A stretch of 64,000 nt of DNA. It comes from Eubacteriales bacterium. Its GTDB lineage: Bacteria > Bacillota > Clostridia > Oscillospirales > CAG-272. This document shows positions 10,698 to 32,525 of the stretch, in pieces. Position numbers and translations under genes: made by a program. The notes under the pieces were generated by a model. That model was not told the DNA's origin. It did not search any database and worked only from the letters and a program-made list of their open reading frames with translations. Numbering within the stretch: position 1 is the stretch's first letter; each line of letters begins with the position of its first letter. The DNA lies in the NCBI GenBank assembly GCA_045650025.1, contig JAZRQR010000157.1, positions 12,682-76,681 on the forward strand, in the 5' to 3' direction.

Positions 10698-10967
10698 AAA
10701 ATCTCCTTTCTTGAAACAGATAAAAGTATCCTTCCAATATATGCGCATCCCCATACACATTTGCAAAAAAACAAAAAACGGCTGACTATCGGCATCCGGT
10801 AGTCAACCATTATCGGTGGTCTGTAGAAACGCCTGCCCCTATTGCAGGCTTATACCTCTATTGCGGGGATCGTGTCCTTCTTTCGTATATAGTATAGCAC
10901 ATTTTGCACATTTTGTCAAGCCCTGCGAAATCCGCGCCCAAATCCGCCGCTTCTCTTCACTTTTCCC

Positions 10968-19800: not shown

Positions 19801-21744
19801 GTTGCCCTTGTAGGTATCGGTCAGCTTAGCATCCTGGAACTTCTCGGGAATGAGATTGAATACCAGGTCGATCGCACGGTCGGTCAGGTTGAATGCAGCC
19901 TGTGCCTTAGCAGAATCGGGGATTCTGTTCTGGAACTCTGCAAATGCGCTGACCATGCGTACAACGATTGCCTGTGCGCGAGCGGGGCTGACGTTGAACT
20001 TGTTTGCAACGCGTGCGGTTGCTGCTGCGAGAAGCTCGCTGCCAACCAGTGCGTCTGCATCCTTAAGCTGGGTCAGTGCTGCCAGGTCGCTGTAAGTCAC
20101 TACCTGAGTCAGGTTATAAACAGACTGGAGAGTGAAAGACGCTTCCTTGCCGTTTACGGACTCGGGAACAGCCTCGATCAGGATATCGCCGTACTTCTGG
20201 AACAGCTCCAGAGCAGGACGAATCTCTGCCAGCTTTGCCATGAATGCATCTTCCTTAGCGTCGGTTGCGGATACGTTATCCAGCAGATACTCCATAACGT
20301 CTGCGAACTGCTCATAGGTCAGCAGATCGAACAGGGACAAGAGCTCACCAACGGTTGCGCTCTCGCTCAGGCCTGCAACGATGGTCTGCTTGGTCTGATC
20401 GGAAACGCCTGCATGATTGAGAGCCTTGGTCAGAGCCATGGTGAATGCGCCGGGAACCATCACGTTCACGTGCACGTCACCGTCCAGACCCTGTGCAAAA
20501 TCATATGCATCGTATGCAATGTCAACGGTCTTGAGCAGTGCCTTTGCAGCGTTGCGAACCAGTGCAACGTCGCCACGCAGTGCTACGTTGAACTCGATCT
20601 CGCTGTCAGCCTTACCCTCAGCACCCAGAACAACGTCATAGGTAGCCAGTACACCGTCGTTGCCAACGTTTGCTACGTCGGTGGGGGTAACGGGGTCAAC
20701 CATCAGAGCGCTCTTGAGGCCCTGAACCGAGATCAGCTCGCCATAGTTGCCGGACTCAACGGTGCTCAGCAGCTCTGCCATCTGGGTAATGCTATAACCC
20801 TCGACCTCAACAACCTTGTAGCCGTTTACGGTTACGTCAGTCACCTTACCGTTGTAGATCTCGGTAGCAGTTGCCTGGATGAAGGCGGTGATAGCGCTCT
20901 TGTATGCGCTCTGAGCGTTGCCGGTTCTGACGTCGCCCAGTACGTCTGCAAGAATCTGGTTGTAGTTGCTTGCATCCACGTTTACGTACAGCGTTGCAAC
21001 GCCGTTCGCATATACCATTTCGTACTCGCCGTAGTTCACGGGCAGACCGTTTACGTCAGCAACAACCTTTTCCAGGATGTCAACGGTAGTACCCTTGATT
21101 ACGATCTCGTCAGCGCCCATGGGAACGATCACGTAGGTGTTGTCCCACTTCACGTACTGACCTGCAACAGCAGTACCCTGGTATGCGGGGATCAGCTTCT
21201 TGTAGCCAAGCTCCTGCTTGTTAACGGCTACACCATCGATTTCCCAGATAACGGTACAGGTGGGAGAAACGTAGTCAGGATTTTCTTCCTTCTTCTTCTG
21301 TTCTTCCTTCTGATACTCGATGGATTCCTTGATCTCGTCAAAGCTTGCGCCGTTCTGAACTGCGTCTACAACGGTGTCAATGTCACCGATGTGCTCGTCG
21401 TTTACCAGAACGTCCTCGATAACGGTGTCAAACTTTTCCTTTGCATCGTCATCGTCCTTTGCGCCGAGAATCTCGTTTGCGGACTCTTTAAAAGATTCGT
21501 CGCTTTCATACTTTTCATTGACGTAATCCTTCAACTCCTGCTCCATAGCGTCTTTGTCTTCCATATCCTTGACGCTATTGTACTTGTTGATCAGGTCAAT
21601 GAACGCACTCATATCCTTGCCTGCAAAAGAGGACAGGAGAGAGTTGTCTGCAGCGAACGTGGGAACAGTGATTACAGAGATAAACATTGCCAGAGTCAAC
21701 AATGCTACCAGTACTCTGCAACCAAGTTTTGCGGTTTGCTTCAT
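16891..21744 (-). CDS. Giant bitopic surface protein (1,617 aa): signal peptide, Listeria-Bacteroides (Flg_new)-type repeats, Pro/Thr/Glu linker, one TM helix, cytoplasmic uL15-like domain and (A/V)PxVEE tandem tail
   Basis: Track ORF 16891..21759. The start is moved to the ATG at 21744 (MKQTAKLGCRVLVALLTLAMFISVITVPTFA), 8 nt after GGAGG. Repeats include YTITFDVLGTLYTQTFAYGTVP...LNFKGWKGF, VTFVVADKSYTVEVPYGTMP...LSFKGWN and VNFYAGDKLISSVEVKYNTVP...YTFKGWY. The TM helix is WWIFLIILLVFIAVLIVAYILY (nt 17488-17553). The tail is GAVNVGTLNEHYENGDKVDIDSLKAKKLIASDCKRVKVLADGDLNKALTVEANGFSLQAIKMITLTGGHAV (nt 17029-17340). Confidence 0.9.
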   Translation of the reverse strand: MKQTAKLGCRVLVALLTLAMFISVITVPTFAADNSLLSSFAGKDMSAFIDLINKYNSVKDMEDKDAMEQELKDYVNEKYESDESFKESANEILGAKDDDDAKEKFDTVIEDVLVNDEHIGDIDTVVDAVQNGASFDEIKESIEYQKEEQKKKEENPDYVSPTCTVIWEIDGVAVNKQELGYKKLIPAYQGTAVAGQYVKWDNTYVIVPMGADEIVIKGTTVDILEKVVADVNGLPVNYGEYEMVYANGVATLYVNVDASNYNQILADVLGDVRTGNAQSAYKSAITAFIQATATEIYNGKVTDVTVNGYKVVEVEGYSITQMAELLSTVESGNYGELISVQGLKSALMVDPVTPTDVANVGNDGVLATYDVVLGAEGKADSEIEFNVALRGDVALVRNAAKALLKTVDIAYDAYDFAQGLDGDVHVNVMVPGAFTMALTKALNHAGVSDQTKQTIVAGLSESATVGELLSLFDLLTYEQFADVMEYLLDNVSATDAKEDAFMAKLAEIRPALELFQKYGDILIEAVPESVNGKEASFTLQSVYNLTQVVTYSDLAALTQLKDADALVGSELLAAATARVANKFNVSPARAQAIVVRMVSAFAEFQNRIPDSAKAQAAFNLTDRAIDLVFNLIPEKFQDAKLTDTYKGNGVFSFGFDVTYNPTAWLKNILDNVTITAFGKSITLGNYVPSRDVTSDVSFTVTVADLYSVKFVDEKGSLIFEGFLPYGAQLAPYYSDLKTEGYTLVAQDAYGDVLLTMPAADTVVTVKKVVDEYTITFDVLGTLYTQTFAYGTVPSLDADLYLFDTLNFKGWKGFGAELPVVTGDATYVADYTADVTFVVADKSYTVEVPYGTMPAPENAWVEAIADVLSFKGWNTAIVPATAHATYEADLWATVNFYAGDKLISSVEVKYNTVPATPEAPAKEMDLVNRYTFKGWYQANGTALNNVTAHTDYYAEYTAVAHFDANSNVTLNGDTFVLTMGDYQQVGNRWTASSVIPAVLFQLAEMNADVTLQVVVGENGSGHAVTILLDNAALLNIKSNATADEISFAVSTVVGEEIEWPADADFYNYDAVYSFDLTGSAFTSGKATITVPFANDSAKFHGYAYFVGANGVEKQPVVSEGDALTFTTTHFSYYAVNYEQYLYTVNFYGLDGSLIKTVTINTDLGQTLDAADVPAFAAVAAPDANGHYVSKWKWGVRYYDPADKFASDAQDYDFYEVQIQEAHGFGTTYHYDDANHWQTCSVCGYQNVEAHTHVNGECVCGHTQAVTPETSETETTAPEETTAPEETTPEETTPEETTPEETTPEETTPEVTTPEETTAPEVTTPEETTTPEQTTPEETTTPEETTPEETETETETETETESGTNVPESSVTTEDTSAPDSETESGTESIEDEEDKKNGWWIFLIILLVFIAVLIVAYILYGHNIFPKGPATEEPAPEAVEEEKTDAQVAAAAPVVEPAPEAAPVAVVEHVTATEVDALMTDAQAVGAVVLVASAATGKMGAVNVGTLNEHYENGDKVDIDSLKAKKLIASDCKRVKVLADGDLNKALTVEANGFSLQAIKMITLTGGHAVKLQPNAPEAAPAVEEAPAVEEAPVVEEAPAVEEAPVVEEAPAQETDAE
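16915..17022 (-). repeat. In-frame 18-bp tandem repeat (5 good plus 1 degenerate unit) encoding APAVEE/APVVEE
   Basis: The units GGGAGCTTCCTC[C/A/G]AC[A/T][A/G]C start at 16915, 16933, 16951, 16969 and 16987. There is a degenerate unit at 17005-17022. Confidence 0.9.
17668..17950 (-). repeat. In-frame low-complexity repeats encoding (ET)n and (TPEET)n linker
   Basis: 6-bp CTCAGT/CTCGGT units run over 17668-17708, then ~15-bp units (GGAGTGGTTTCCTCG-like) continue to ~17950. The protein reads TTPEETTPEETTPEETTPEETTPEVTTPEETT...ETETETETETE. Confidence 0.85.
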
Positions 21745-21899
21745 TGGTTTTTCCTCCAACTATAAAGATTTTTAAGACTCGGGATATTTCAAACCCCTGC
21801 CGGTTTTTCCGACTTGGGCGCCTTAACATTACATAATATACACGCACGGCTTCAACGCCCAAAAAGGCATAATTCACCCAATGCGCCTATATTACGAGT

Positions 21900-22637: not shown

Positions 22638-24212
22638 ATGAAACGCTTGATTTCCCTTTTGGCGGTCTTGTTGGTGCTCTCACTGTGCGCGTGCAGCGTA
22701 CCCGGTGACGGAGTCACCGACACTACCATGACCGACCTTGACGATACGTCTGCGTCAAATGACACAACAGAGCCAGACACTGCCGCGCCGGAAACGGATG
22801 CGGACACCGAAGCCGAAACGTCTCCCGCCTGCAACCACGCAGACACGGACGACAACGGCGTTTGTGACGTGTGCACCATCTCGGTGCTGGTCAGCGTGGA
22901 TCTCTTTTCGATCAACGACCTGCACGGCAAATTCAACGATACCGACGATCAGCCCGGCGTGGACGAGCTGACCACCTATCTCAAAAACGCCGTACAAGCC
23001 AACCCCTACACCGTGCTGCTTTCGGCGGGCGATATGTGGCAGGGCAGCTCGGAGTCCAATTCCACCAAGGGTCTGATCATCACCGACTGGATGAACGAGC
23101 TGGATTTTGCCGGCATGGCACTTGGCAACCACGAATTTGACTGGGGCGTGGAGGCAATTTTGCAAAACGTGGAGCTTGCCGAGTTCCCCATTCTTGCCAT
23201 CAACGTCTATGAGCGAAGCACCAATACCTTGGCTGACTACTGCACCCCCTCGGTGCTTGTGGATAAGGGCGAGGTGCAGATCGGCATCATCGGTGCCATT
23301 GGCAACAACTATTCCTCGATCTCGGCGGACAAGGTGCAGGACTACTATTTCGTGCTGGACGATGCACTGACCAAGCTGGTCAAATCTGAGTCCGATTCCC
23401 TGCGTGCGCAGGGGGCAGATCTCATCGTATACGTCATTCATGACGGCGGCGGTGAATATGACTATTCCCTCTCCGACGGCTACGTAGACGTGGTTTTTGA
23501 GGGTCACAGCCACCAAAATTACGTCAAGAAGGACTCCCGGGGCATTTACCACCTGCAGGGCGGCGGCGATAACGACGGCATTACCCACGCCATGGCAAAG
23601 GTCAATTACGTGACCGGCAGCGTTGTAGTCGTGACCGCGGAATACCTGCCTACCTCGCGCTATGCAAGCCTTGCCGATGACCCCATTGTGGAAGAGCTCA
23701 ACCAAAAATACGCGGACGACCTGGAGATCGGCAACCAAAACCTTGGCTACAACGCAAAGAAGCGCTACTCCGATCAGATTCTGCAAAAGGTTGCGGATCT
23801 GTACCTTGCATACGGCGAGGAGCGCTGGGGTGAGCAATACGACCTGGTGCTGGGCGGCGGATTCCTCTCGGCGCGTTCCCCCTACGATCTTGAAAAGGGC
23901 GACGTGTATTACGCCGATCTGCAAATGCTGCTCCCCTTCGACAACCAGATCGTGCTGTGCTCAATCAAGGGCTCGGATCTCTTAAACCGCTTTATCAACA
24001 CCACCAACGACCGCTACTACATTTCGCTGAGTGACTACGGTACCGATATCAAAAGCTCGATTGACCGTAACGCCACCTATTACATCATCACAGACACCTA
24101 TTGCTCCTCCTACGCCGCCAACCGCCTGACCGTAATTGATACGTATGACCAGACCACGTTCGCGCGTGACCTGATTGCCGAATATATCAAGGACGGAAAT
24201 TGGAGTAAATAA
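22638..24212 (+). CDS. Secreted bifunctional metallophosphatase/5'-nucleotidase-family lipoprotein (UshA/CpdB/YhcR-C-terminal-like)
   Basis: Track ORF of 524 aa. It has a signal/lipobox (MKRLISLLAVLLVLSLCACS). The calcineurin-like motifs appear in order: INDLHG, GDMWQGS, GNHEFD, FEGHSHQ. A C-terminal substrate-binding-like domain follows. Confidence 0.85.
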   Translation: MKRLISLLAVLLVLSLCACSVPGDGVTDTTMTDLDDTSASNDTTEPDTAAPETDADTEAETSPACNHADTDDNGVCDVCTISVLVSVDLFSINDLHGKFNDTDDQPGVDELTTYLKNAVQANPYTVLLSAGDMWQGSSESNSTKGLIITDWMNELDFAGMALGNHEFDWGVEAILQNVELAEFPILAINVYERSTNTLADYCTPSVLVDKGEVQIGIIGAIGNNYSSISADKVQDYYFVLDDALTKLVKSESDSLRAQGADLIVYVIHDGGGEYDYSLSDGYVDVVFEGHSHQNYVKKDSRGIYHLQGGGDNDGITHAMAKVNYVTGSVVVVTAEYLPTSRYASLADDPIVEELNQKYADDLEIGNQNLGYNAKKRYSDQILQKVADLYLAYGEERWGEQYDLVLGGGFLSARSPYDLEKGDVYYADLQMLLPFDNQIVLCSIKGSDLLNRFINTTNDRYYISLSDYGTDIKSSIDRNATYYIITDTYCSSYAANRLTVIDTYDQTTFARDLIAEYIKDGNWSK

Positions 24213-24255: not shown

Positions 24256-24321
24256 CTTCCTGTCTTCACATACGACGTGCAAACCGTCGAATCCGGTTCA
24301 TGCCTTTGCATGACATAACCG

Positions 24322-24343
24322 AAAGGGGCTTTTCAGCCCCTTT
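24322..24343 (-). terminator. Probable terminator of the ECF-sigma fusion gene
   Basis: AAAGGGGCT-tttc-AGCCCCTTT (24322-24343), 9 nt after the stop at 24352. Confidence 0.55.
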
Positions 24344-24351
24344 CTTAATTA

Positions 24352-26991
24352 TCATTCACTTTTCTTATACCATTGCTCCTCGGGGGCCGAGATGGGCCCT
24401 GCCTCCCAGCACGCTCTGTCCTGATTGCCCAGCGCATTGCGGAAGATGACCATTTCGTCGCCTTCCAGGTCGTAGGTGTATTCCACGGATGCATGCACGC
24501 CGTTGCCCGAGAATTTGGACTCATAGCGGCGGAACATGCCGTCCTCTGCGGGGAAAAATCCTTCGCCCGTGCCGTGGTATTCGGTCAGCTCCCAAACGTC
24601 CTGCAAGGTGTCGCCCTTGTACAGCGCGGTCATCTTGACAATGCCCACACCGGGTGCAAACCAGTATTCCTTCTTGCCGCCTCGATAGCCCCAGCCGGTG
24701 CCCTCAAGTCCACGCAGATCAAACGCGATATGTCTGCAGCCCTCGAACGTGCCAGCCTCAACCGTGACCGTGCAATCATCAAGCACGTCCAGCGTCAAGT
24801 CAACCTTCTGCCTTCCACATTCAACCTGCTTGGTTTCTAAGTGATAGCCGGGTACCCAAGCATCGCTCCAGAGATACCCTGTAGCTTCAGCCAAAATATC
24901 GTACAGGAAATTATGCAGCACACAAAATTCATAATCTCCGCATTTTGCCATGTCCTTGCCTTCGAACGAATAACGCCAGTTCCCCTCCCACGTATATCCC
25001 TTGCCGTTGTAAAGTAGTACATAAGGGGAGAAGAAATTCCATCTGCCAAATTCGGTGAAGTCGGGGTTGGCGTCCGGATCGGTATCCCAGATGCGCTGCA
25101 TGACCTCAGTTGCAATCGCCGTGTGCACCTTCTGACGCTTGGTCTCTGCCAGCTCTGCCGCGCGCTTCATGATGCCGCTGACGTCACGCAACAGCCATTT
25201 GCCATCCTTGGGATAGATATAATTGTGGCGCGCATTGAGAATATGGCCCTGCCAAGTATCTTTATAGCCCGTGACCTGTGCAAAGTAGCCGTTGCTGACC
25301 ACCGCTCTGCCATTTTTGTAGCTTGTGACCTCAAAATAGTTTTCCGCTGCAAAAACATAGGGGGAATCCTGATCTACACTAACATATTCCCAGCGATTTC
25401 CGGGAGCAAAAGGAACCATCCACTCTCCACCGCAAATTTTGTAAGAGCTCAGCTCCCAGCTGTGGGTATCGGAATACCTCGTGTTGGTCTGCGCGATCAA
25501 TCCCACACCCGGAGCAAATGCAGTTTTGGTATAGGTAACATAGGAAAGATTTCCTGTCATTTCATATACCGTACAATGTGCGAACGTACCTGCCGCCACC
25601 GTAACGGTTGCATCATTTTCAAGGCATGTCAGCGTCATGCTGCCATCGGACGACTTGACGCTTTGCCCCGGGAACAGATCAGGATCGTAAAGCAGTCCGT
25701 CGCAGAGAGAGGTATTCCAGAACAGCGAATCATTGAGTTCTGCCGTGCCGCCGCGAGTATATCCGGGCTGCTCCCAGAAGTAAAGCTTTTTGCCAACGTA
25801 CTGATAGACCTCACCGCGCGTGCCGTACGCCATACCGTCGCGGTCAAACGCCTCGATCTTGGGCGCGGCTGCCTTTTTCTGTTCTGTCCAAAGAGAAGAC
25901 AAGGCATTTGCATAGTACACATCCTCGGGAGTCAGAAGCTCCAACACCTTGCGGAAGGCATCCATACCCTGCTCCGTGTGGTTTTCATCCATGCTGTAGC
26001 AGCCGTACCAGAACCACGTATAGCCCACGGCCTTGACAAAGCCGTGCCGCTCAAGCTCGGGGATCTGCTCCTCGCGCATGAAGGCAAGGCGTTCCTCGCC
26101 CTTATATTTTTGGTATTCTTTGGGAACAACCGCCTGCATCACCGACTCATTACGGCTTGCAATGGCTGCTGCCTTGATTTTTGCCAGCACCTCATCGTTT
26201 GCCTGCCCGGGCAGCCACCAGTAGCCCAACAAAAGTACGTCAGCAAGCATGTATTGCTTATCTGCCGAGTCATCCAAGCCCTCAACCGAGGACAGCACAG
26301 CACGGTACTCGGGCTCAAAGCCTGTTTTGTCATTCTTGATACGCCACAGCTTGAGGTGCTCCACCTGCTCGCGCACGCGCTGTACCAAAGTCTTGTTTTC
26401 GTCGTATTCCTTTTCGATCATACCGTATTCCTTTCTCAGTTGTCGTCTCCCCTCGCTCAGACGCCACTTGACCGTTCCGACCGGTACGGAAAGCTTTGCG
26501 GCGATCTCGGCAACAGACAGCCCACCGAAGTAATGCAGCTCGATCGCCTCGCGGATCTTGTCGCTCAATGCATCCACGTATAAGTGCAGCTGCTCGTCAC
26601 GCATTGCCTCTGCAACGCCGACAACGCCTGTCAGCTCGTCAAGCCCGCTCTCATCCTCGCCACCCAAGTCCATGGTCTCCAAAAGGTGCAGGCTGATATC
26701 CGCCGTCACGCTTCTGTAGTGTGTAACAAGGCTACGGGCGCGATTCTTGGCGATGGCGCATACCCAAGAGCCGAATTTGCCCGGCTCCTTGAGAGATGCC
26801 AGGTTCATCCACGCCGACACAAAGGCATCCTGCGACGCATCCTCTGCAGAGAACGTGTTGCCCGTCACCTTATATGCCGTGCCCTTGACCGCACGCTCGT
26901 GCCGCAGCACCAGCGCGTCAAATGCTTTGGAATCGCCAAGCAGCGTCATTTGCACCAAGCTCTCGTCGTTTTTCTCGTTGTGCTTGTTCAT
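24352..26991 (-). CDS. ECF-type sigma-70 factor fused to a ~650-aa C-terminal extension with an internal domain duplication
   Basis: Track ORF of 879 aa. Region 2 is FSAEDASQDAFVSAWMNLASLKEPGKFGSWVCAIAKNRARS. Region 4 is LSVAEIAAKLSVPVGTVKWRLSEGRRQLRKEY. I see no TM segment. The duplicated modules are TVTVAAGTFAHCTVYEM...FAPGVGLIAQ...SWELSSY and TVTVEAGTFEGCRHIAF...FAPGVGIVKM...VWELTEY. Confidence 0.85.
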   Translation of the reverse strand: MNKHNEKNDESLVQMTLLGDSKAFDALVLRHERAVKGTAYKVTGNTFSAEDASQDAFVSAWMNLASLKEPGKFGSWVCAIAKNRARSLVTHYRSVTADISLHLLETMDLGGEDESGLDELTGVVGVAEAMRDEQLHLYVDALSDKIREAIELHYFGGLSVAEIAAKLSVPVGTVKWRLSEGRRQLRKEYGMIEKEYDENKTLVQRVREQVEHLKLWRIKNDKTGFEPEYRAVLSSVEGLDDSADKQYMLADVLLLGYWWLPGQANDEVLAKIKAAAIASRNESVMQAVVPKEYQKYKGEERLAFMREEQIPELERHGFVKAVGYTWFWYGCYSMDENHTEQGMDAFRKVLELLTPEDVYYANALSSLWTEQKKAAAPKIEAFDRDGMAYGTRGEVYQYVGKKLYFWEQPGYTRGGTAELNDSLFWNTSLCDGLLYDPDLFPGQSVKSSDGSMTLTCLENDATVTVAAGTFAHCTVYEMTGNLSYVTYTKTAFAPGVGLIAQTNTRYSDTHSWELSSYKICGGEWMVPFAPGNRWEYVSVDQDSPYVFAAENYFEVTSYKNGRAVVSNGYFAQVTGYKDTWQGHILNARHNYIYPKDGKWLLRDVSGIMKRAAELAETKRQKVHTAIATEVMQRIWDTDPDANPDFTEFGRWNFFSPYVLLYNGKGYTWEGNWRYSFEGKDMAKCGDYEFCVLHNFLYDILAEATGYLWSDAWVPGYHLETKQVECGRQKVDLTLDVLDDCTVTVEAGTFEGCRHIAFDLRGLEGTGWGYRGGKKEYWFAPGVGIVKMTALYKGDTLQDVWELTEYHGTGEGFFPAEDGMFRRYESKFSGNGVHASVEYTYDLEGDEMVIFRNALGNQDRACWEAGPISAPEEQWYKKSE

Positions 26992-27273
26992 GTGCGTTTC
27001 CTTTCTCGCCGTCTGTTTTTTGGGGGTTCTCTTCGACTATAAGACTCCGGATTTTGGCAAAAGGTTGGGTGGATCGAAAAATTTTGTTGGAATTATTATA
27101 ACACGGTTTTTGGGGCAAGTCAAGAAGCATCCATACATCCGTAGTGCGTGGGTTTGCTCCCGCCTCGCCCCCAATTCGCGCTCGCACAAACATCTTTTTT
27201 CACAAATTCTCCCTTGGCGTTTTGTGCGATGCTACAAGAATTTCGTTTCCGACAATTTCTTTTGAAAAAAGGT

Positions 27274-27302
27274 TTGCAATTTGTGCCGGTTTGTAGTATA
27301 AT
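27274..27302 (+). promoter_or_regulatory. Promoter TTGCAA-N17-TATAAT for the DHH-DHH-surE operon
   Basis: TTGCAA (27274-27279) and TATAAT (27297-27302). The ~100-nt leader contains the hairpins TGTTGA-gcgtgt-TTCAACA and GATTCC..CGGCATGCCG..GGAATC. Confidence 0.65.
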
Positions 27303-27410
27303 GATGTGTTGAGCGTGTTTCAACATATGACATAGATACAAATGATTCCCCGCCGGCATGCCGCGCGCGGAATCCCCCGGTTATTTTGAATAAAATTTAA
27401 GGAGTTATAT

Positions 27411-28355
27411 ATGTTTGAAAAGATTTTGGAGCAGATCCGCTGCCACGACACCATTATCCTTCACCGTCACACCAACCCCGACGGCGATGCAATGGGCAGC
27501 CAGATCGGGCTTAAGCACATCATCAAGGAAAACTTCGAGGGAAAGCGCGTGCTGATGGTGGGTGACCCTGCCAAGCGTTACGGCTTTATGGAGGACAGCG
27601 TGATGGACGAGGTGGCAGACGAGGACTACCGCGATGCCCTTGCCATTGTGCTGGATACCTCTGCAAAGGCGTTGATCAGCGACACGCGCTACACCACCGC
27701 GCACGTCTCTGCACGCATTGACCACCACCTGTTCTGCGAAACCATTGCAGATATTGAGGTGACCGACAACTCCTACGAGAGCTGCTGCGGTCTGATCACC
27801 GAATTCGCCATGGAGAGCGGACTTACCCTTTCCCCCTTGGCTGCAAAATCGCTTTACACGGGTATGATCACCGACTCGGGTCGTTTCCGCTACGACTCCA
27901 CCTCCGCCAACACCTTCCGTCTGGCTTCGTTCTTGAAGTCGCACCCCTTTGATACCAACGATATTTACCGCAATCTGTACGCAGATGACTTCTCTTTCAT
28001 CCGCCTGCGCGCCTCCTTTGTGCTGAAAATTCAGTTTACCGAGCACAAGGTGGGTTACATTTACACCACCAAAGAGGAGCTTGCCCAGACCGGCGCGGAC
28101 ACCTTTACCGTATCGCGCGGCATGGTCAACACCATGGGCGAGATTCGCGGCGTGGATATTTGGGTCAACTTTACCGAGACCGATGACGGCGTGCTTTGCG
28201 AGCTGCGCTCTTCCAAGTACAACATCAACGCTGTAGCAGTCAAGTACGGCGGCGGCGGTCACATCAAGGCAAGCGGCGCGACGGTGAAGGATCACGCAGA
28301 AGCAATGCAGATGCTGGCAGACCTTGACGCCATTGCGAGAGGAGGACAAAACTAA
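27411..28355 (+). CDS. DHH/DHHA1 phosphoesterase, NrnA-like (nanoRNase/pAp phosphatase; Pde2-type pApA/c-di-AMP activity not excluded), paralogue 1
   Basis: Track ORF of 314 aa with motifs ILHRHTNPDGDAMGS, VLDTS, RIDHH and GGGHIKASGA. The RBS is AAGGAG. Confidence 0.88.
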   Translation: MFEKILEQIRCHDTIILHRHTNPDGDAMGSQIGLKHIIKENFEGKRVLMVGDPAKRYGFMEDSVMDEVADEDYRDALAIVLDTSAKALISDTRYTTAHVSARIDHHLFCETIADIEVTDNSYESCCGLITEFAMESGLTLSPLAAKSLYTGMITDSGRFRYDSTSANTFRLASFLKSHPFDTNDIYRNLYADDFSFIRLRASFVLKIQFTEHKVGYIYTTKEELAQTGADTFTVSRGMVNTMGEIRGVDIWVNFTETDDGVLCELRSSKYNINAVAVKYGGGGHIKASGATVKDHAEAMQMLADLDAIARGGQN

Positions 28356-29326
28356 TGGAAATTTTACAGCAGATTTACGATAAGATCGCACAATACGACC
28401 GCATCATGCTGTTCCGCCACGTGCGCAACGACGGCGACTGCGTGGGCGCAACCAAGGGCCTTAAGGCGATTCTGACCCTGACCTGGCCCGAAAAGCAGGT
28501 ATATCTGATCGACGATGAGCATGCCGATTACTTAGAGTTCCTGGGGCCCGAGGATCAGCCCGTTGCCGACGAGGTGTACGAGGGCGCTTTGGGTATCGTG
28601 CTTGACACCGGCACAGACGCGCGTATTTCCAATAAGAAGTACGCACTTTGCAAGGAGCTGATCAAGATTGACCACCACATCAACATCTGTCCCTACGGCG
28701 ACCTTGCCTGGGTGGAGGAGGACGCCTCCTCTTGCTGCGAAATGGTGGCAAAATTCTACCTTGCAAACAAGGACAAGCTCAAGATCGACCGCGAGGCTGC
28801 AACCTACCTGTACACCGGCATTGTGACCGACTCGGGTCGCTTCCGTTACAACAGCACCTCGGGTGACACCATGCGCATAGCGGGCATGCTGCTGGATCTG
28901 GGCGTAGACACCGACGTGCTGTTTGCCAATCTGTACATGCAGGATCCGGAAAGCTTTAAGTTCAAGTCCTTTGTCTACAAGAACATGAAAATGACCCCCG
29001 CGGGCGTGGCGTATCTGTACGTCAGCCGCGCCACCATGGAAAAATACGGACTTTCGCACGAGCAGGCAGCCGCTGCCGTTTCGCTGATGGATTCGATCAA
29101 GGGCTCTTTGATCTGGCTGATCTTTATCGAGCACGAGACCGAGATCCGCGTGCGTCTGCGCTCCCGCTTTGCAACGGTCAATCAGATCGCCGAGCGCTAT
29201 AACGGCGGCGGTCACGCATGCGCAAGCGGCGCTACCGTGAAGTCCAGACGCGAGGCAAACAAGCTGATCAAGGAAGCTGACGCGGCACTTGCCAAGTACA
29301 AGGCGGAAAACGAGGGCTGGTTATGA
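28355..29326 (+). CDS. DHH/DHHA1 phosphoesterase, NrnA-like, paralogue 2
   Basis: Track ORF of 323 aa with motifs MLFRHVRNDGDCVGAT, VLDTG, KIDHH and GGGHACASGA. Its start overlaps the upstream stop (TAATG). Confidence 0.88.
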   Translation: MEILQQIYDKIAQYDRIMLFRHVRNDGDCVGATKGLKAILTLTWPEKQVYLIDDEHADYLEFLGPEDQPVADEVYEGALGIVLDTGTDARISNKKYALCKELIKIDHHINICPYGDLAWVEEDASSCCEMVAKFYLANKDKLKIDREAATYLYTGIVTDSGRFRYNSTSGDTMRIAGMLLDLGVDTDVLFANLYMQDPESFKFKSFVYKNMKMTPAGVAYLYVSRATMEKYGLSHEQAAAAVSLMDSIKGSLIWLIFIEHETEIRVRLRSRFATVNQIAERYNGGGHACASGATVKSRREANKLIKEADAALAKYKAENEGWL

Positions 29327-30048
29327 GAATTTTGATTACCAACGACGACGGCATCAAAGCCGAGGGACTTTTGGGACTGGTCAAGTGGGCTTGCAAGTAC
29401 GGTGAGGTCACAGTTTGCGCACCTCTGCACGAACAGAGCGGCAAAAGCCAGGGCATTGATATTTTCCACCCCATTGCGGTCAGCAAATACGATCTGATCG
29501 AGGGCGTTGAGGCATACTCTGTGGATTCCACCCCTGCCGATTGCGTGCGCTTTGGCATCATTGGGCTGGCAAAGCAGTACGATCTGGTGATTTCGGGCAT
29601 CAACCGCGGCTACAACATCGGTCAGGACATCGTGTACTCCGGCACGGTGGGCGCGGTCTACGAGGCAGCAGCACAGGGCGTGAGCGGTCTTGCCCTCTCC
29701 ACCTCCCCTTCTACCCTGCCCGGCGCTTTGGAGCAGCTGGACTACGTGTACAAGTTCATTGAGCGCAACAAGCTGTTCGCGCAAAACGACGTATACAACG
29801 TCAACATCCCCGAGAATCCGCAAGGCATTCGCATCACCCACCAGGGCAAGGCGAAATACTCGGACGAATGGGTGGACATGGGCAACGGCACCTACACGCA
29901 GGTTGGGCAGTTCATTTTTGAGAACACCAAGAACCTCGATCTGGACACCGACTGCGTCATGAACGGCTACGTTTCCATCACTCCCATGCAGACCGACCGC
30001 ACCAATCTCGCACTCTATAAAAAGCTTGCAGGATATCTCAATCAATAA
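29323..30048 (+). CDS. surE: 5'/3'-nucleotidase SurE
   Basis: Track ORF of 241 aa. It begins MRILITNDDGIKAEGL and contains SGINRGYNIGQDIVYSGTVGA. There is a 4-nt ATGA overlap with the upstream gene. Confidence 0.9.
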   Translation: MRILITNDDGIKAEGLLGLVKWACKYGEVTVCAPLHEQSGKSQGIDIFHPIAVSKYDLIEGVEAYSVDSTPADCVRFGIIGLAKQYDLVISGINRGYNIGQDIVYSGTVGAVYEAAAQGVSGLALSTSPSTLPGALEQLDYVYKFIERNKLFAQNDVYNVNIPENPQGIRITHQGKAKYSDEWVDMGNGTYTQVGQFIFENTKNLDLDTDCVMNGYVSITPMQTDRTNLALYKKLAGYLNQ

Positions 30049-30116: not shown

Positions 30117-32525
30117 TTAAGCGAGGATATCAGTTACCAGAATGGTCAGATACTTGCCGCTGCTTGCAGTGCCGATGATGTAACCCTCAACGGAGAAGGT
30201 GTTACCTGCCTGTGCGTCAAGTGCTTCCTTGATCGCGCCTGCGGGATAAGAGAAGCTGCCTACGATGGTGCAGCCATCCATGGTGAAGTTGTAGTAGTTG
30301 CCGGAAACAGCAAGCGTACCGGTCACCTTTACGTAGATGGGAGCAATATCGGAAGCGGTTGCGTAAGCATCCAGCTCAGCTGCACTCAGCTCTACAGCGG
30401 TGGGAGTCTCGACGGTGCCGTTCTCCAGAACGGTAACCTCGGTGCCCTGACCGAACTGCTTTGCACCGCCGTAAACGGAGGTGGTACCGGAAACCTTCAC
30501 CACGTCACCAACGTTGCACGAAGGAGCGGAGCCAAGGTAGATCAGCATCATGCCGGTCTTATCGGAGATCAGCAGGCTTCTGCCGGTGATACCAACAACA
30601 GTACCAACAGTCTCGTACTTGCCGTTCTCGCTTGCCTTGATCTCCTCAATGGTGGGGTAATCGGGCTTGCCCTCGGAAACTACAACGAGCTGCAGGGGGA
30701 ACTGGCTGACACCGGTGTTCTCAGCGCTGATGTAGCTGGTCTTGGAACCGCTGACGGTATCGAAGTTGCTGTAAGTGCCCAGGTAGTACTGGCTCTCCTC
30801 GCCCTCAACGTTGGTTACCCATGCGTTGATATCAGCGTTGTAAACGTAAACGGAAAGTGCGGTATCCTGATAGAATACGGCGATCTTGCCACCGTCGTTC
30901 TTGGTGATGTTGATGTACTTCTTAGCGCCGTCTACCATGGTGTAGAAGGAGTAGCCATCGCCGTTTGCCTCAGCATAAACGTCGATCGCCTCTGCAGCAG
31001 CCTTGGAGGTGATCAGGTATCTGTCACCGGTTACACCGCCGGATACGAATACGCCGTAGCCGTTGGTGCCCTGGTACATATAGAGCTTGTATGCAACTTC
31101 AGCCTCGGGAGTGGTTACGGGCTCAACGGTAAAGTTGGTAGCAACCAGCATAACCTCAAACTCGACGGTCTCGGTAGCATCACCCAGAGTAACGGTTGCA
31201 GTCAGCTTGATGGTGGTGGTCTCTGCAGGCATGGTCAGAGTCAGCTTGCCGTCTGCAATCTTAGCAAACTCGCTGTCGGAAGCCCAAGTGATGGAAACTT
31301 CGGGATAGGTTGTGCCTGCTACGGGCAGATCGATCTCAGCGCCCTCGGTGAAGGTGCTCTCGAAGGTCAGGCTATCCTTTTCCAGGGTAACCTTTTCAGC
31401 ATCGGATCTTTCGGGAAGTGCGTAGTTGTAGAAGCAATCTACGGAAGTGGGAATGATGTAGGGTGCGCCGCTGTAGGTGATCAGAATACCGGTAACGTCA
31501 GCGGTGTAGCCGTACTTTTCAGCGTGTGCTGCATCGATGGTTGCCTTGTCGTCAGCCTTCAGGGTAGTGGGGAAATCGGTTACGTAGGTTCTTACGTAGC
31601 CCTGAACGCCATTCAGCTCGAAGAACAGGTACTGGCTGGTTGCAGTTGCAAGCTCCTGACCGCCAATGGTAACGCCCTTAACGGTTACAGGCATACCAAC
31701 AAGCTCATTGAAGTTGGTGCCTTCAACCCACTTATCGGTAATGTCAACGGGAGCGAAGTCCTTCTTTTCAGTGTTTACAACAGTGGGAATACCGCCCTTG
31801 ATCTCCATCATGCCGCTGTAAGGAGCAGCAGGACCGGAAACGCGAACGGTCATACCGAGCTCGATGCCGAGATCAGCAACGGGGTCAACGTCCATCTGGT
31901 AGGAGTAGTAGCCGCCAAAGCCGCTCTCATCCAAGAGGAACAGGTGGTTTCTGGTGTTGCCTGCAGCCTTGGAGTTGATAGCAACAACGATACCCTGAAT
32001 GATCAGGTTGTCGCCTTCCTTAGCAGCCTGGTACTCTTCCCAAGTAGTAACCTTGAACTTGGGAACAGTGCGGTTGAATTCCTTGGTAACGGTGTTGCCT
32101 TCTGCATCAGCAACGGTTGCAGTCAGCACGTAAGCAATGTCCTCGAAGGACTCGTCGGGAACGTCAACGGTAACGGTGCCGTCCTCGGCAACGGTAAGAG
32201 TGATCTTATCGGTGTTAACAGCCCAGGTAACAGCGTAGCTTACGCCGCCAACCTTCACGCTGGAAATCAGGGTGTAGTCAGCAGCGGTAACGGTGGTGTC
32301 CTTGTACAGCTGACGAACGTACTCAGCTGCGTTCTCAAGGTCAGTGGGCTCTTGAGCGCCGGGCTCCTCGGTGGTGACTTCCTCAGAAGACTCGGGAGTC
32401 TCGGTCGTCTCTTCAGCAGCGGTAGTGTCATCAGTTCCCTGCTGCTCGCCGTTGTCACAAGCAACGAACAGAGCCAGAGAGCAAACAAGAGCTGCTGCGA
32501 GCAAAAGCATTAAAATCTTTTTCAT
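30117..32525 (-). CDS. Large surface lipoprotein with repeated OB-fold-like modules (putative nucleic-acid-binding, no catalytic motif seen)
   Basis: Track ORF of 802 aa with a lipobox (MKKILMLLLAAALVCSLALFVACDNG). Modules include GNLIIQGIVVAINS...HLFLLDESGFGGYYSY...GMTVRVSG...YSGMMEIKG and YETVGTVVGITGRSLLISDKTGMMLIYL...GDVVKVSGTTSVYGGAKQF. These resemble the OB barrels of extracellular nucleases. Confidence 0.7.
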   Translation of the reverse strand: MKKILMLLLAAALVCSLALFVACDNGEQQGTDDTTAAEETTETPESSEEVTTEEPGAQEPTDLENAAEYVRQLYKDTTVTAADYTLISSVKVGGVSYAVTWAVNTDKITLTVAEDGTVTVDVPDESFEDIAYVLTATVADAEGNTVTKEFNRTVPKFKVTTWEEYQAAKEGDNLIIQGIVVAINSKAAGNTRNHLFLLDESGFGGYYSYQMDVDPVADLGIELGMTVRVSGPAAPYSGMMEIKGGIPTVVNTEKKDFAPVDITDKWVEGTNFNELVGMPVTVKGVTIGGQELATATSQYLFFELNGVQGYVRTYVTDFPTTLKADDKATIDAAHAEKYGYTADVTGILITYSGAPYIIPTSVDCFYNYALPERSDAEKVTLEKDSLTFESTFTEGAEIDLPVAGTTYPEVSITWASDSEFAKIADGKLTLTMPAETTTIKLTATVTLGDATETVEFEVMLVATNFTVEPVTTPEAEVAYKLYMYQGTNGYGVFVSGGVTGDRYLITSKAAAEAIDVYAEANGDGYSFYTMVDGAKKYINITKNDGGKIAVFYQDTALSVYVYNADINAWVTNVEGEESQYYLGTYSNFDTVSGSKTSYISAENTGVSQFPLQLVVVSEGKPDYPTIEEIKASENGKYETVGTVVGITGRSLLISDKTGMMLIYLGSAPSCNVGDVVKVSGTTSVYGGAKQFGQGTEVTVLENGTVETPTAVELSAAELDAYATASDIAPIYVKVTGTLAVSGNYYNFTMDGCTIVGSFSYPAGAIKEALDAQAGNTFSVEGYIIGTASSGKYLTILVTDILA

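What the first reader, a model, noticed from the sequence alone, without database searches (positions are those of the whole stretch)
24352..26991. ECF sigma factor fused to a ~650-aa soluble C-terminal extension containing an internal domain duplication
Regions 2 and 4 of an ECF sigma occupy only the first ~190 aa. The same ORF then continues for ~690 aa with no TM helix and no adjacent anti-sigma gene.

The extension contains two clearly related modules:
- LTCLENDATVTVAAGTFAHCTVYEM...FAPGVGLIAQ...SWELSSYKICGGEW
- LTLDVLDDCTVTVEAGTFEGCRHIAF...FAPGVGIVKM...VWELTEYHGTGEGF

ECF groups with C-terminal regulatory extensions are established (for example the ECF41/42 types), but those extensions are far shorter. 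An extension this large suggests an in-cis sensor or ligand-binding domain that replaces the anti-sigma factor. Its position inside the nucleic-acid island suggests what it may sense.
Basis: partly seen in the sequence, partly recalled or inferred. Interest (0 to 1): 0.6.

Follow-up and report, generated by a model that had tools for sequence, protein, structure and literature searches.

The report
Giant soluble-tailed ECF sigma factor
This is a real 879-residue gene in which an ECF-type sigma factor is permanently fused to a large soluble tail of unknown function; the design is shared by hundreds of uncultured gut and rumen Clostridia, carries its own conserved self-promoter, and has a ribosome-binding site plus start codon conserved exactly at the fusion point.

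Summary
ORF 24352-26991 (-) encodes 879 aa. Residues 1-190 are a canonical ECF sigma (regions 2 and 4). Residues 191-879 have no TM helix and contain a real internal duplication (hhalign E 1e-17, 432-586 vs 705-868).

The fusion is not an artefact. More than 170 protein clusters of 830-900 aa, at 35-93% identity, share the architecture.

The tail is a TPR-like helical arm (202-375) followed by two beta modules. The modules are only distantly related to DUF3108-like proteins of unknown function. AlphaFold models them confidently, but Foldseek finds no convincing PDB match.

No anti-sigma or any other partner gene is conserved next to it. The nucleotidase neighbourhood is shared only by relatives at 87% identity or more, so it does not indicate what is sensed.

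New here:
- **Promoter:** every homologue carries the ECF-type promoter CCCAACCTTT-N15-GTCTTAT. It is essentially the only copy in each genome.
- **Internal start:** the sigma/tail junction carries AGAAAGGAA plus an in-frame ATG, maintained at synonymous sites. This suggests a separately translated tail.

Most likely it is a self-contained, positively autoregulated ECF sigma controlled in cis by its tail. The signal and regulon are unknown. It is a new variant of a known kind.

The parts
24352..26991 (-). Complete CDS, 879 aa: ECF sigma fused to a soluble extension
   Evidence: Full-length homologues.
26725..26913 (-). Sigma region 2 (residues 27-89)
   Evidence: Pfam PF04542, E 1.4e-12. PDB sequence matches to AlgU, SigW and RpoE.
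26596..26715 (-). Acidic sigma2-sigma4 linker (residues 93-132), predicted disordered
   Evidence: AlphaFold pLDDT below 50 over residues 93-132.
26428..26595 (-). Sigma region 4 (residues 133-188)
   Evidence: Pfam PF08281, E 5.7e-12, and PF04545.
26419..26436 (-). Junction element. It has the SD-like sequence AGAAAGGAA (26436-26428), identical to the 9-mer of the main RBS, and an in-frame ATG for M191 (26421-26419). It is a candidate internal translation start that would give a 689-aa tail-only product.
   Evidence: An SD-like motif occurs in 66 of 67 sequences against 39 expected from codon usage. It is the only alignment column with SD plus a start codon (92%). The junction residues 187-198 are predicted disordered.
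25867..26388 (-). TPR-like helical arm (residues 202-375, nine helices). The clearest TPR motif is at about residues 325-358.
   Evidence: AlphaFold secondary structure. The family profile matches consensus TPR proteins, E 4e-12. Pfam TPR hits occur in a subset of homologues. Foldseek returns weak TPR protein hits.
25234..25698 (-). Beta module, copy 1 (residues 432-586), with the invariant AGTFxxC motif (C473)
   Evidence: hhalign E 1.2e-17 against copy 2. AlphaFold pLDDT 93 for residues 380-879. Invariant columns listed.
24880..25233 (-). Helical and beta connector between the two modules (residues 587-704)
   Evidence: AlphaFold secondary structure.
24388..24879 (-). Beta module, copy 2 (residues 705-868), with invariant C752. 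It gives a partial DUF3108-like match.
   Evidence: Pfam PF21347, E 3e-5, 24.3 bits against a cut-off of 27, covering only profile positions 141-195 of 199. The family profile matches PDB 4fvs and 3fzx, E about 2-3e-5. hhalign.
27038..27069 (-). Family-specific ECF-type promoter: -35 CCCAACCTTT (27069-27060) and -10 GTCTTATA (27045-27038)
   Evidence: The motif is present 58-124 nt upstream of the ATG in 74 of 75 homologous loci. It is the only strong PWM match in the window's own 2.65-Mb genome. Coordinates checked.
27095..27123 (-). Housekeeping-type promoter: TTGACT, 17 nt, then TGTTATAAT (extended -10), upstream of the ECF promoter
   Evidence: 11 of 12 consensus match. An extended -10 lies within 70 nt upstream of the ECF -35 in 25 of 72 homologues, against 7 of 72 in control sequence.
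26996..27006 (-). Main ribosome-binding site AGAAAGGAAAC
   Evidence: GAAAGGA is conserved before the ATG across homologues.
24321..24344 (.). GC-rich hairpin between the convergent sigma gene and the 5'-nucleotidase gene. It is a probable bidirectional terminator, which would make the sigma gene monocistronic.

Best explanation
The gene encodes a genuine single-polypeptide ECF sigma factor. Its anti-sigma or sensor function has been replaced by a fused cytoplasmic tail of about 690 aa, made of a TPR-like arm and two tandem beta modules distantly related to DUF3108-like proteins.

**Shown.**
- The fusion is real and conserved, soluble, single-copy and monocistronic, with no conserved partner gene.
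- It sits behind a housekeeping-type promoter and a family-specific ECF-type promoter, CCCAACCTTT-N15-GTCTTAT. That ECF-type promoter accompanies the gene in essentially every genome.

**Inferred.**
- The sigma recognises that promoter, giving positive autoregulation on top of basal expression.
- Because sigma and tail are made 1:1, the tail gates sigma activity in cis. It would do so by contacting sigma4/sigma2 through the proximal helical arm, as in ECF41/ECF42, and changing conformation when the beta modules bind a cytoplasmic ligand or protein.
- The conserved Shine-Dalgarno-like sequence plus ATG at the junction probably also yields a free tail isoform that could act in trans as buffer or anti-sigma.

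The signal and the regulon beyond the gene itself are unknown.
For: **Sigma core.** It is canonical and under constraint (invariant residues).

**Architecture.**
- It is conserved in more than 170 clusters at 90% identity.
- 269 clusters at 50% identity match the beta region out of 1.84 billion representatives. Nearly all of those match at the same position within proteins of the same length.
- 80 genome loci were recovered.

**Structure.**
- No TM helix.
- AlphaFold gives pLDDT 85.5 for the full length and 93.4 (pTM 0.87) for residues 380-879. The sigma2-sigma4 linker and the junction are disordered.
- The family profile hits consensus TPR proteins, E 4e-12.
- The internal repeat has E 1e-17.

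**Context.** No conserved neighbour or anti-sigma gene.

**Promoter.**
- The motif is in 74 of 75 upstream regions, with the ECF hallmark AAC in the -35 and GTC/TCT in the -10, at the usual ECF spacing.
- It is a single hit per genome in nearly all of the 46 motif-positive genomes among 61 family-carrying genomes.
- It is at background level in genomes of the order that lack the family: 6 hits against 13 control hits in 150 genomes. One of the 6 lies upstream of that genome's own homologue.

**Internal start.**
- R186 is AGA in 66% of sequences against 19% gene-wide. CGC and CGT occur 0 times in 67, against 52% gene-wide.
- K187 is AAG in 88% against 50% gene-wide.
- An SD-like motif occurs in 66 of 67 against 39 expected.
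- It is followed by ATG or GTG in all 67 sequences.
- It is the only such column in the whole gene alignment.
Against: - No experiment or expression data exist.
- I could not inspect inter-domain contacts or PAE, so docking of the tail on the sigma domains is not shown.
- The tail contains no recognisable anti-sigma domain.
- Foldseek gives no convincing fold relative, so 'ligand-binding' is conjecture.
- Outside its own gene, promoter copies were found in only 2 of about 60 genomes, in front of ABC exporters. A sigma whose only visible target is itself is odd for a pure regulator.
- The SD-like junction could instead be a translational pause site or a relic of an ancient two-gene operon.
- The sequences are phylogenetically related, so the codon counts are not independent events.
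Confidence: 0.55

Rival explanations
1. The tail is the output, not only the regulator. The sigma domain mainly provides a self-amplifying expression switch for a cytoplasmic binding or enzymatic protein (the TPR arm plus two beta modules), and the gene is its own main or sole target.
For: - The family promoter is essentially single-copy per genome and lies in front of the gene itself.
- The PWM scan of the window's own genome finds nothing above the reversed-sequence control apart from the self promoter.
- The tail is larger and better conserved than any known soluble regulatory extension.
- The number of modules varies. A subfamily of 1040-1150 aa has a third module.
Against: - Target promoters of ECF sigmas are often more degenerate than the autoregulatory one and can escape motif scans.
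- Two genomes do have bona fide promoter copies before ABC exporters.
- The tail shows no catalytic motif or enzyme family hit.
- The MAGs are incomplete (93% for this one).
Confidence: 0.2
2. ECF42-like positive control. The tail is required for sigma activity rather than inhibitory, and the TPR arm recruits a protein partner.
For: - A TPR motif lies in the proximal arm.
- ECF42 extensions are TPR-rich, essential for activity, and contact sigma4 through their proximal part (PMC8999054).
Against: - The conserved YCII-related neighbour of ECF42 is absent.
- About 500 aa of beta modules have no ECF42 counterpart.
- The sigma core could not be classified here.
Confidence: 0.2
3. The conserved upstream motif is not this sigma's own promoter. 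It is instead an operator or promoter used by another regulator or sigma factor.
For: There is no direct evidence of who reads the motif. Some homologues have short dyad-symmetric sequences just downstream of the -10, such as GAAGCTTC and CAGCTG.
Against: - The motif travels with the gene across variable genomic contexts and is absent elsewhere in the genomes.
- It has ECF-type -35/-10 architecture and spacing.
- The two other ECF genes in this genome do not carry it.
Confidence: 0.1
4. An assembly or frameshift artefact has joined an ordinary 190-aa sigma gene to a downstream gene.
For: - An RBS-like sequence plus ATG sits exactly at the junction.
- One distant relative (L153) has a stand-alone tail gene with stop codons upstream.
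Against: - The reading frame is continuous in every one of more than 170 independent clusters and 80 genome loci from many assemblies.
- The four 'tail-only' proteins checked are gene calls at contig edges.
Confidence: 0.02

Closest known systems
ECF42 sigma factors (for example Sven_0747/4377/7131 of Streptomyces venezuelae, ECF-10 of Pseudomonas putida; PMC8999054)
   Same: - Sigma2 and sigma4 core only.
- No anti-sigma factor.
- A soluble C-terminal extension that begins with TPR-type helices.
- Regulation expected to act in cis through the extension.
   Different: - ECF42 extensions are about 200 aa and consist of TPR only. Here the TPR arm is followed by about 500 aa of two duplicated beta modules.
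- The conserved YCII-related neighbour is absent.
- The phyla differ: uncultured gut and rumen Clostridia here.
- The promoter motif is specific to this family, and the junction carries a conserved internal SD plus ATG.
ECF41 sigma factors (SigJ of M. tuberculosis, Ecf41 of B. licheniformis and R. sphaeroides; PMC3426412, PMC8999054)
   Same: A fused soluble regulatory C-terminal domain, no anti-sigma factor, and control by conformational change rather than proteolysis.
   Different: - The ECF41 extension is a SnoaL-like domain of about 100-150 aa. No SnoaL match is found here.
- To my knowledge ECF41 sigmas are not autoregulated and target an adjacent gene. Here the only conserved target is the gene itself.
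ECF52 and ECF57-type sigmas with long multi-domain extensions (SCO4117, PMC5826349; planctomycetal WD40-type, PMC8999054)
   Same: They show that ECF sigmas can carry very long C-terminal multi-domain regions.
   Different: - ECF52 extensions include a zinc finger, transmembrane segments and an extracytoplasmic carbohydrate-binding domain.
- ECF57 extensions carry WD40-like repeats.
- The tail here is entirely soluble and has neither.
DUF3108-like proteins (Pfam PF21347; PDB 4fvs 'putative lipoprotein', 3fzx 'putative exported protein')
   Same: The C-terminal 55-90 residues of each beta module, around the TVxTPAGTFxxC...FAPGVGIVK hairpins, match the C-terminal part of this domain.
   Different: - Those proteins are stand-alone exported proteins or lipoproteins of about 215 aa with unknown function.
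- Here the match is partial, below the Pfam threshold in this protein, cytoplasmic, duplicated, and fused to a sigma factor.

Membership tests
ECF (group 4) sigma-70 factors | Regions sigma2 and sigma4 present, no sigma3 or sigma1.1, and a score above the curated family threshold | tested here: met
   PF04542 and PF08281 are both above their cut-offs. TIGR02937 scores 73.1 bits against 42.9. No other sigma region was hit. PDB matches are ECF sigmas only.
ECF (group 4) sigma-70 factors | Assignment to a numbered ECF Hub group by the group HMMs of the sigma core | not testable with these tools
   The ECF Hub HMMs are not in any library offered. No supplementary tables of PMC7826278 are held.
ECF42 | C-terminal extension of about 200 aa composed of TPRs | tested here: inconclusive
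   A TPR motif is present: profile against consensus TPR gives E 4e-12, with nine helices over residues 202-375. The extension is 690 aa, however, and about 500 aa of it is non-TPR beta structure.
ECF42 | Conserved YCII-related (DGPF) protein encoded in the neighbourhood (PMC8999054) | tested here: not met
   No such Pfam family appears among the neighbours in the window or in 5 annotated homologous loci. No neighbour family recurs in more than 11 of 75 loci.
ECF41/56/205/294/295 | SnoaL-like C-terminal extension | tested here: not met
   No SnoaL family hit at E <= 1 for the full protein or E <= 10 for the tail segments.
Sigma fused to a class I anti-sigma domain (ASD / zf-HC2) | A recognisable anti-sigma domain in the extension | tested here: not met
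   No ASD, zf-HC2 or RskA Pfam hit. The family profile finds no anti-sigma chain in the PDB at E <= 10.
DUF3108-like (PF21347) | Full-domain match above the gathering score | tested here: inconclusive
   The window protein scores 24.3 bits against a cut-off of 27, covering only profile positions 141-195 of 199. Some homologues exceed the cut-off (36 bits in P0108). The profile hits 4fvs and 3fzx at E about 2-3e-5 over 60-90 residues.
Membrane-anchored long-extension ECFs (ECF52, ECF263) | Transmembrane helices in the extension | tested here: not met
   The maximum 19-residue hydropathy is 1.15, with no TM segment.

The most novel reading that the evidence does not exclude
One ORF encodes a complete sigma/anti-sigma-like circuit with itself as its only regular target. 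The full-length protein is the sigma. A conserved internal ribosome-binding site and ATG at the domain boundary produce the free 689-aa tail as a second product that buffers or antagonises the sigma in trans. The sigma-specific promoter occurs only in front of this gene, so the system is a self-contained bistable or self-amplifying switch whose physiological output is the tail protein itself, a new cytoplasmic binding fold.
Probability: 0.25. Interest if true: 0.75.

Novelty: new variant of a known kind. Interest (0 to 1): 0.55.

Why it matters
ECF sigma factors are often called the third pillar of bacterial signal transduction. Those regulated by fused extensions are the least understood.

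This family is abundant in uncultured gut and rumen Clostridia. To my knowledge it has the largest purely soluble extension known, built from a fold with no solved close relative.

It couples three features:
- a sigma-specific promoter that appears only in front of its own gene;
- a tandem housekeeping-type promoter;
- a conserved internal translation start at the fusion point.

If confirmed, it would give a compact one-gene model for how fused domains replace anti-sigma factors. It would be an example of two functional products from one sigma ORF, and an orthogonal sigma/promoter pair for synthetic biology in Firmicutes. It would also give the first functional handle on the DUF3108-like module.

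Tried and rejected
1. **Nucleotidase-island link.** Rejected, because the synteny is limited to relatives at 87% identity or more.
2. **Search for a conserved partner or anti-sigma gene.** I clustered all flanking ORFs of 75 loci. Nothing recurs beyond generic ABC, XRE and other sigma-like proteins.
3. **Regulon prediction.**
   - A two-block PWM was run on the window's own genome, and strict and one-mismatch patterns on 61 family-carrying genomes.
   - Only the self promoter was found, plus two genuine copies before ABC exporters. Other one-mismatch hits were at the control rate.
4. **Fold assignment of the tail.** Foldseek against the PDB was run with both the full-length model and the 380-879 model. 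Only weak hits came back (TM below 0.35, rmsd above 10 Å) to generic beta-rich ligand-binding folds: TbpB, haemophore, ARO/CYC, PR-10 and lipocalin-like. They are not usable.
5. **Library searches on the tail.** NCBIfam found nothing for the tail, and PADLOC found nothing for the full protein.
6. **'Tail-only' proteins as natural split genes.**
   - Four of the five checked are contig-edge gene calls.
   - One distant singleton, L153, looks truly stand-alone, but its upstream context is cut off and it has no detectable relatives by word search.
7. **The 79-aa ORF upstream (27120-27359, -) as a hidden anti-sigma.** Its composition is junk-like and only the nucleotide sequence is partly conserved, so it was rejected.
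9. **Literature.** The searchable library holds no paper describing this family.
Full report
**Observation.**
- The window has an uninterrupted 879-codon ORF at 24352..26991 on the minus strand. Its start is ATG at 26991, preceded by AGAAAGGAAAC, and its stop is TGA.
- Pfam finds Sigma70_r2 at residues 27-89 and Sigma70_r4_2 at 133-185. The NCBIfam superfamily model TIGR02937 (sigma70-ECF) scores 73 bits against a cut-off of 42.9.
- The closest solved sequences are AlgU, SigW and RpoE, matching only residues 6-188.
- The remaining 690 residues have no hydrophobic segment. The highest 19-residue Kyte-Doolittle mean is 1.15, and it lies in sigma region 4.
BLASTP gives 38% identity over 80 residues, E 4e-7. 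A profile-profile comparison built from 59 homologues extends the duplication to 147 columns, residues 432-586 against 705-868, at 98.9% probability and E 1.2e-17.

**The fusion is real.**
- A search with residues 200-879 returned more than 170 clusters at 90% identity. They run 830-900 aa, are 35-93% identical over 96-100% of the tail, and almost all carry the sigma Pfam domains. The few that are named are called 'RNA polymerase sigma factor' of Clostridia or Oscillospiraceae MAGs.
- An exhaustive HMMER search of 1.84 billion representatives with residues 380-879 found only 269 clusters at E <= 0.001. Nearly all match at positions about 370-850 of proteins of the same length.
- A subfamily of 1040-1150 aa carries a third module.
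- Eighty full-length loci were recovered from species-representative genomes. All are gut, caecum or rumen Clostridia MAGs.
- The gene is single-copy in this 2.65-Mb, 93%-complete genome, which has two other ordinary ECF genes.
- The family is patchy. Only 10 of 151 sampled genomes of the same order carry it.
- A frameshift or assembly artefact is therefore excluded.

**Anatomy of the tail.**
- AlphaFold2 with the family alignment gives mean pLDDT 85.5 for the whole protein and 93.4 (pTM 0.87) for residues 380-879.
- The sigma2-sigma4 linker (93-132) and the junction (187-198) are predicted disordered.
- Residues 202-375 form nine helices. The family profile hits consensus TPR proteins at E 4e-12, centred on residues about 325-358. 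Several homologues have Pfam TPR hits.
- After the helical arm come two beta-rich modules separated by a helical and beta connector.
- Each module contains an invariant AGTFxxC motif, with C473 and C752.
- The only family relationship is a partial match to DUF3108-like (PF21347). It is below threshold here at 24 bits against 27, and above threshold in some homologues.
- The profile also matches two structural-genomics proteins of unknown function, PDB 4fvs and 3fzx, at E about 2-3e-5.
- Foldseek against the PDB returns no convincing fold relative for either model.
- NCBIfam has nothing for the tail, and PADLOC has nothing for the full protein.

**Genomic context.**
- In the window the gene is flanked by a convergent metallophosphoesterase/5'-nucleotidase (22638-24212) and by a divergent operon of two DHH/DHHA1 phosphoesterases and SurE (27411-30048).
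- This arrangement is kept only in relatives at 87% identity or more (L003, L004, L009).
- In an 83%-identical relative the downstream gene is an ABC transporter (L013).
- At 45-55% identity the neighbourhoods are unrelated.
- I clustered all flanking ORFs of 75 loci. No family occurs in more than 11 loci, and that one is the generic ABC superfamily at variable distance and orientation.
- There is thus no conserved anti-sigma or partner gene, and the 'nucleic-acid island' gives no clue to the signal.
- A GC-rich hairpin (24321-24344) separates the convergent genes, so the sigma gene is monocistronic.

**A family-specific promoter.**
- I aligned the 130 nt upstream of the start codons. The motif ACCCAACCTTTT-N13-(G/C)TCTTATA appears in 74 of 75 loci, 58-124 nt before the ATG. 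The 75th has CGAACC.
- In the window the -35 CCCAACCTTT is at 27069-27060 and the -10 GTCTTATA is at 27045-27038.
- The AAC-containing -35, the GTC/TCT-containing -10 and the spacing are those of ECF promoters (established knowledge of the family).
- Upstream of it lies a near-consensus housekeeping promoter, TTGACT-17-TGTTATAAT (27123-27095). An extended -10 is found within 70 nt upstream of the ECF -35 in 25 of 72 homologues, against 7 of 72 in control sequence.
- A two-block PWM scan of the whole genome gives 35.5 bits for this site. The next hit scores 18.3 bits, no better than the reversed-genome control.
- Across 61 genomes that carry the family, the motif occurs almost always exactly once, in front of the gene.
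- Genuine extra copies were seen only twice, and both precede ABC-type exporters. They are in L005 and G172.
- In 150 other genomes of the order the strict motif is at background level, 6 hits against 13 control hits. One of the 6 lies upstream of that genome's own homologue.
- The simplest reading is positive autoregulation on top of basal sigma-A transcription. The regulon is otherwise invisible to motif search.

**An internal start signal at the junction.**
- The DNA encoding L-R-K-(E/G)-Y-G-x-M at the end of sigma4 reads AGAAAGGAA, followed 7-10 nt later by an in-frame ATG. In the window the motif is at 26436-26428 and the ATG for M191 is at 26421-26419. The 9-mer is identical to the main RBS.
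- Across 67 non-identical genes, R186 is AGA in 66% of sequences against 19% gene-wide. It is never CGC or CGT, which together make up 52% gene-wide.
- K187 is AAG in 88% against 50% gene-wide.
- An SD-like pentamer is present in 66 of 67 genes against 39 expected from the amino-acid sequence and codon usage.
- An in-frame ATG (59 genes) or GTG (8 genes) follows in all 67.
- In the whole gene alignment this is the only column where an in-frame start codon is preceded by an SD-like motif in more than 30% of sequences. The figure here is 92%. Other conserved Met columns show 0-15%.
- Gene callers pick this start on contigs that are truncated just upstream.
- One distant singleton, L153, appears to be a true stand-alone tail gene with stop codons upstream.
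- I therefore consider internal initiation giving a 689-aa free tail plausible, at about 45%. A pause site or a maintained relic are the alternatives.

**Mechanism.**
- Shown: a real, conserved, soluble, stand-alone sigma-tail fusion with its own conserved ECF-type promoter.
- Inferred: the sigma reads that promoter.
- Inferred: the tail, made 1:1 with the sigma, controls it in cis. The proximal TPR arm would contact sigma4/sigma2, as proposed for ECF41/42 (PMC8999054).
- Inferred: the beta modules bind the unknown cytoplasmic signal.
- Inferred: a separately translated tail may buffer the positive feedback.

**Rivals.**
- The tail is itself the output of a self-amplifying switch. The self-only promoter supports this.
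- The tail is a positive, partner-recruiting ECF42-like module.
- The motif is read by another regulator.

**Comparison and novelty.**
- ECF sigmas with C-terminal extensions are well known. There are 19 groups in the ECF Hub classification, and the extensions are SnoaL-like, TPR, Cys-rich, DUF1835 or TM types (PMC7826278).
- Long extensions exist in ECF52 (PMC5826349) and ECF57 (PMC8999054).
- None of the papers I could search describes a TPR plus duplicated DUF3108-like soluble tail in Clostridia.
- The defining ECF42 neighbour (YCII) is absent, and there is no SnoaL or anti-sigma domain.
- I therefore file it as a new variant of a known kind.
- Notes from earlier agents of this scan on four homologues in other genomes reached similar conclusions. 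I re-tested their promoter and internal-start claims here on independent data.

**Limits.**
- The ECF Hub HMMs were not available.
- All members come from uncultured organisms.

Noticed in passing
window 10799-10855 (-): A purine riboswitch aptamer (Rfam RF00167, 39.9 bits against a gathering score of 37, partial model 23-83 of 102). It lies just upstream of the 590-aa ORF at 8994-10766 (-).
   Followed up: no
window 22638-24212 (+), 27411-30048 (+), 30117-32525 (-): A cluster of nucleotide and nucleic-acid phosphoesterases surrounds the sigma gene: a metallophosphoesterase/5'-nucleotidase, two tandem DHH/DHHA1 proteins, SurE, and a large aBig_2 protein. The 88%-identical relative also has an SNase-domain protein nearby. 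It is conserved only in the closest relatives and is not linked to the sigma family.
   Followed up: partly
window 16891-21765, both strands: Two very long ORFs overlap almost completely on opposite strands, 1622 aa on the minus strand and 1573 aa on the plus strand. The only Pfam hit is a ribosomal L15/L27A domain at the extreme C-terminal end of the minus-strand ORF, at about 17040-17240. So the minus-strand ORF is probably an artefactual extension of rplO, and the plus-strand ORF is a large protein with no known domains.
   Followed up: no
window 27000-27037 (-) and the equivalent leaders in L001-L088: Downstream of the -10, the short 5' leader carries a conserved GTGAA(N)CCCC-AAAA block before the RBS. 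Some clades replace it with short dyads such as GAAGCTTC, CAGCAGCTG and GAATCATGATTC. Its function is unknown. It could be a start-site or discriminator region, an operator, or a small hairpin.
   Followed up: partly
L005 4169-4212 and L112 (G172:C60:79874-79904): In two unrelated genomes a second copy of the family promoter sits in front of ABC-type exporter genes (ABC_membrane plus ABC_tran). In G172 it comes after a 112-aa ORF with no Pfam hit. These are the only candidate regulon members seen.
   Followed up: partly
L153 182-2188: A distant relative (27% identity) of the tail is encoded as a stand-alone 668-aa protein, with in-frame stops and AT-rich non-coding sequence upstream. The contig ends 181 nt upstream, just after what may be the end of another gene (...LKALK*), so it is unknown whether a separate sigma gene precedes it.
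   Followed up: partly
P0108, P0157, P0187, P0201 (proteins of 1040-1150 aa); G061, G075, G084, G091, G143 in the same order: A subfamily of the same sigma-tail architecture carries a third DUF3108-like module at the C-terminus. The number of modules therefore varies within the family.
   Followed up: partly
window 27189-27302: A non-coding block of about 114 nt in the sigma/DHH intergenic region is about 75% conserved in the close relatives. It overlaps promoter-like sites for the divergent DHH operon. The overlapping 79-aa ORF looks non-coding.
   Followed up: partly
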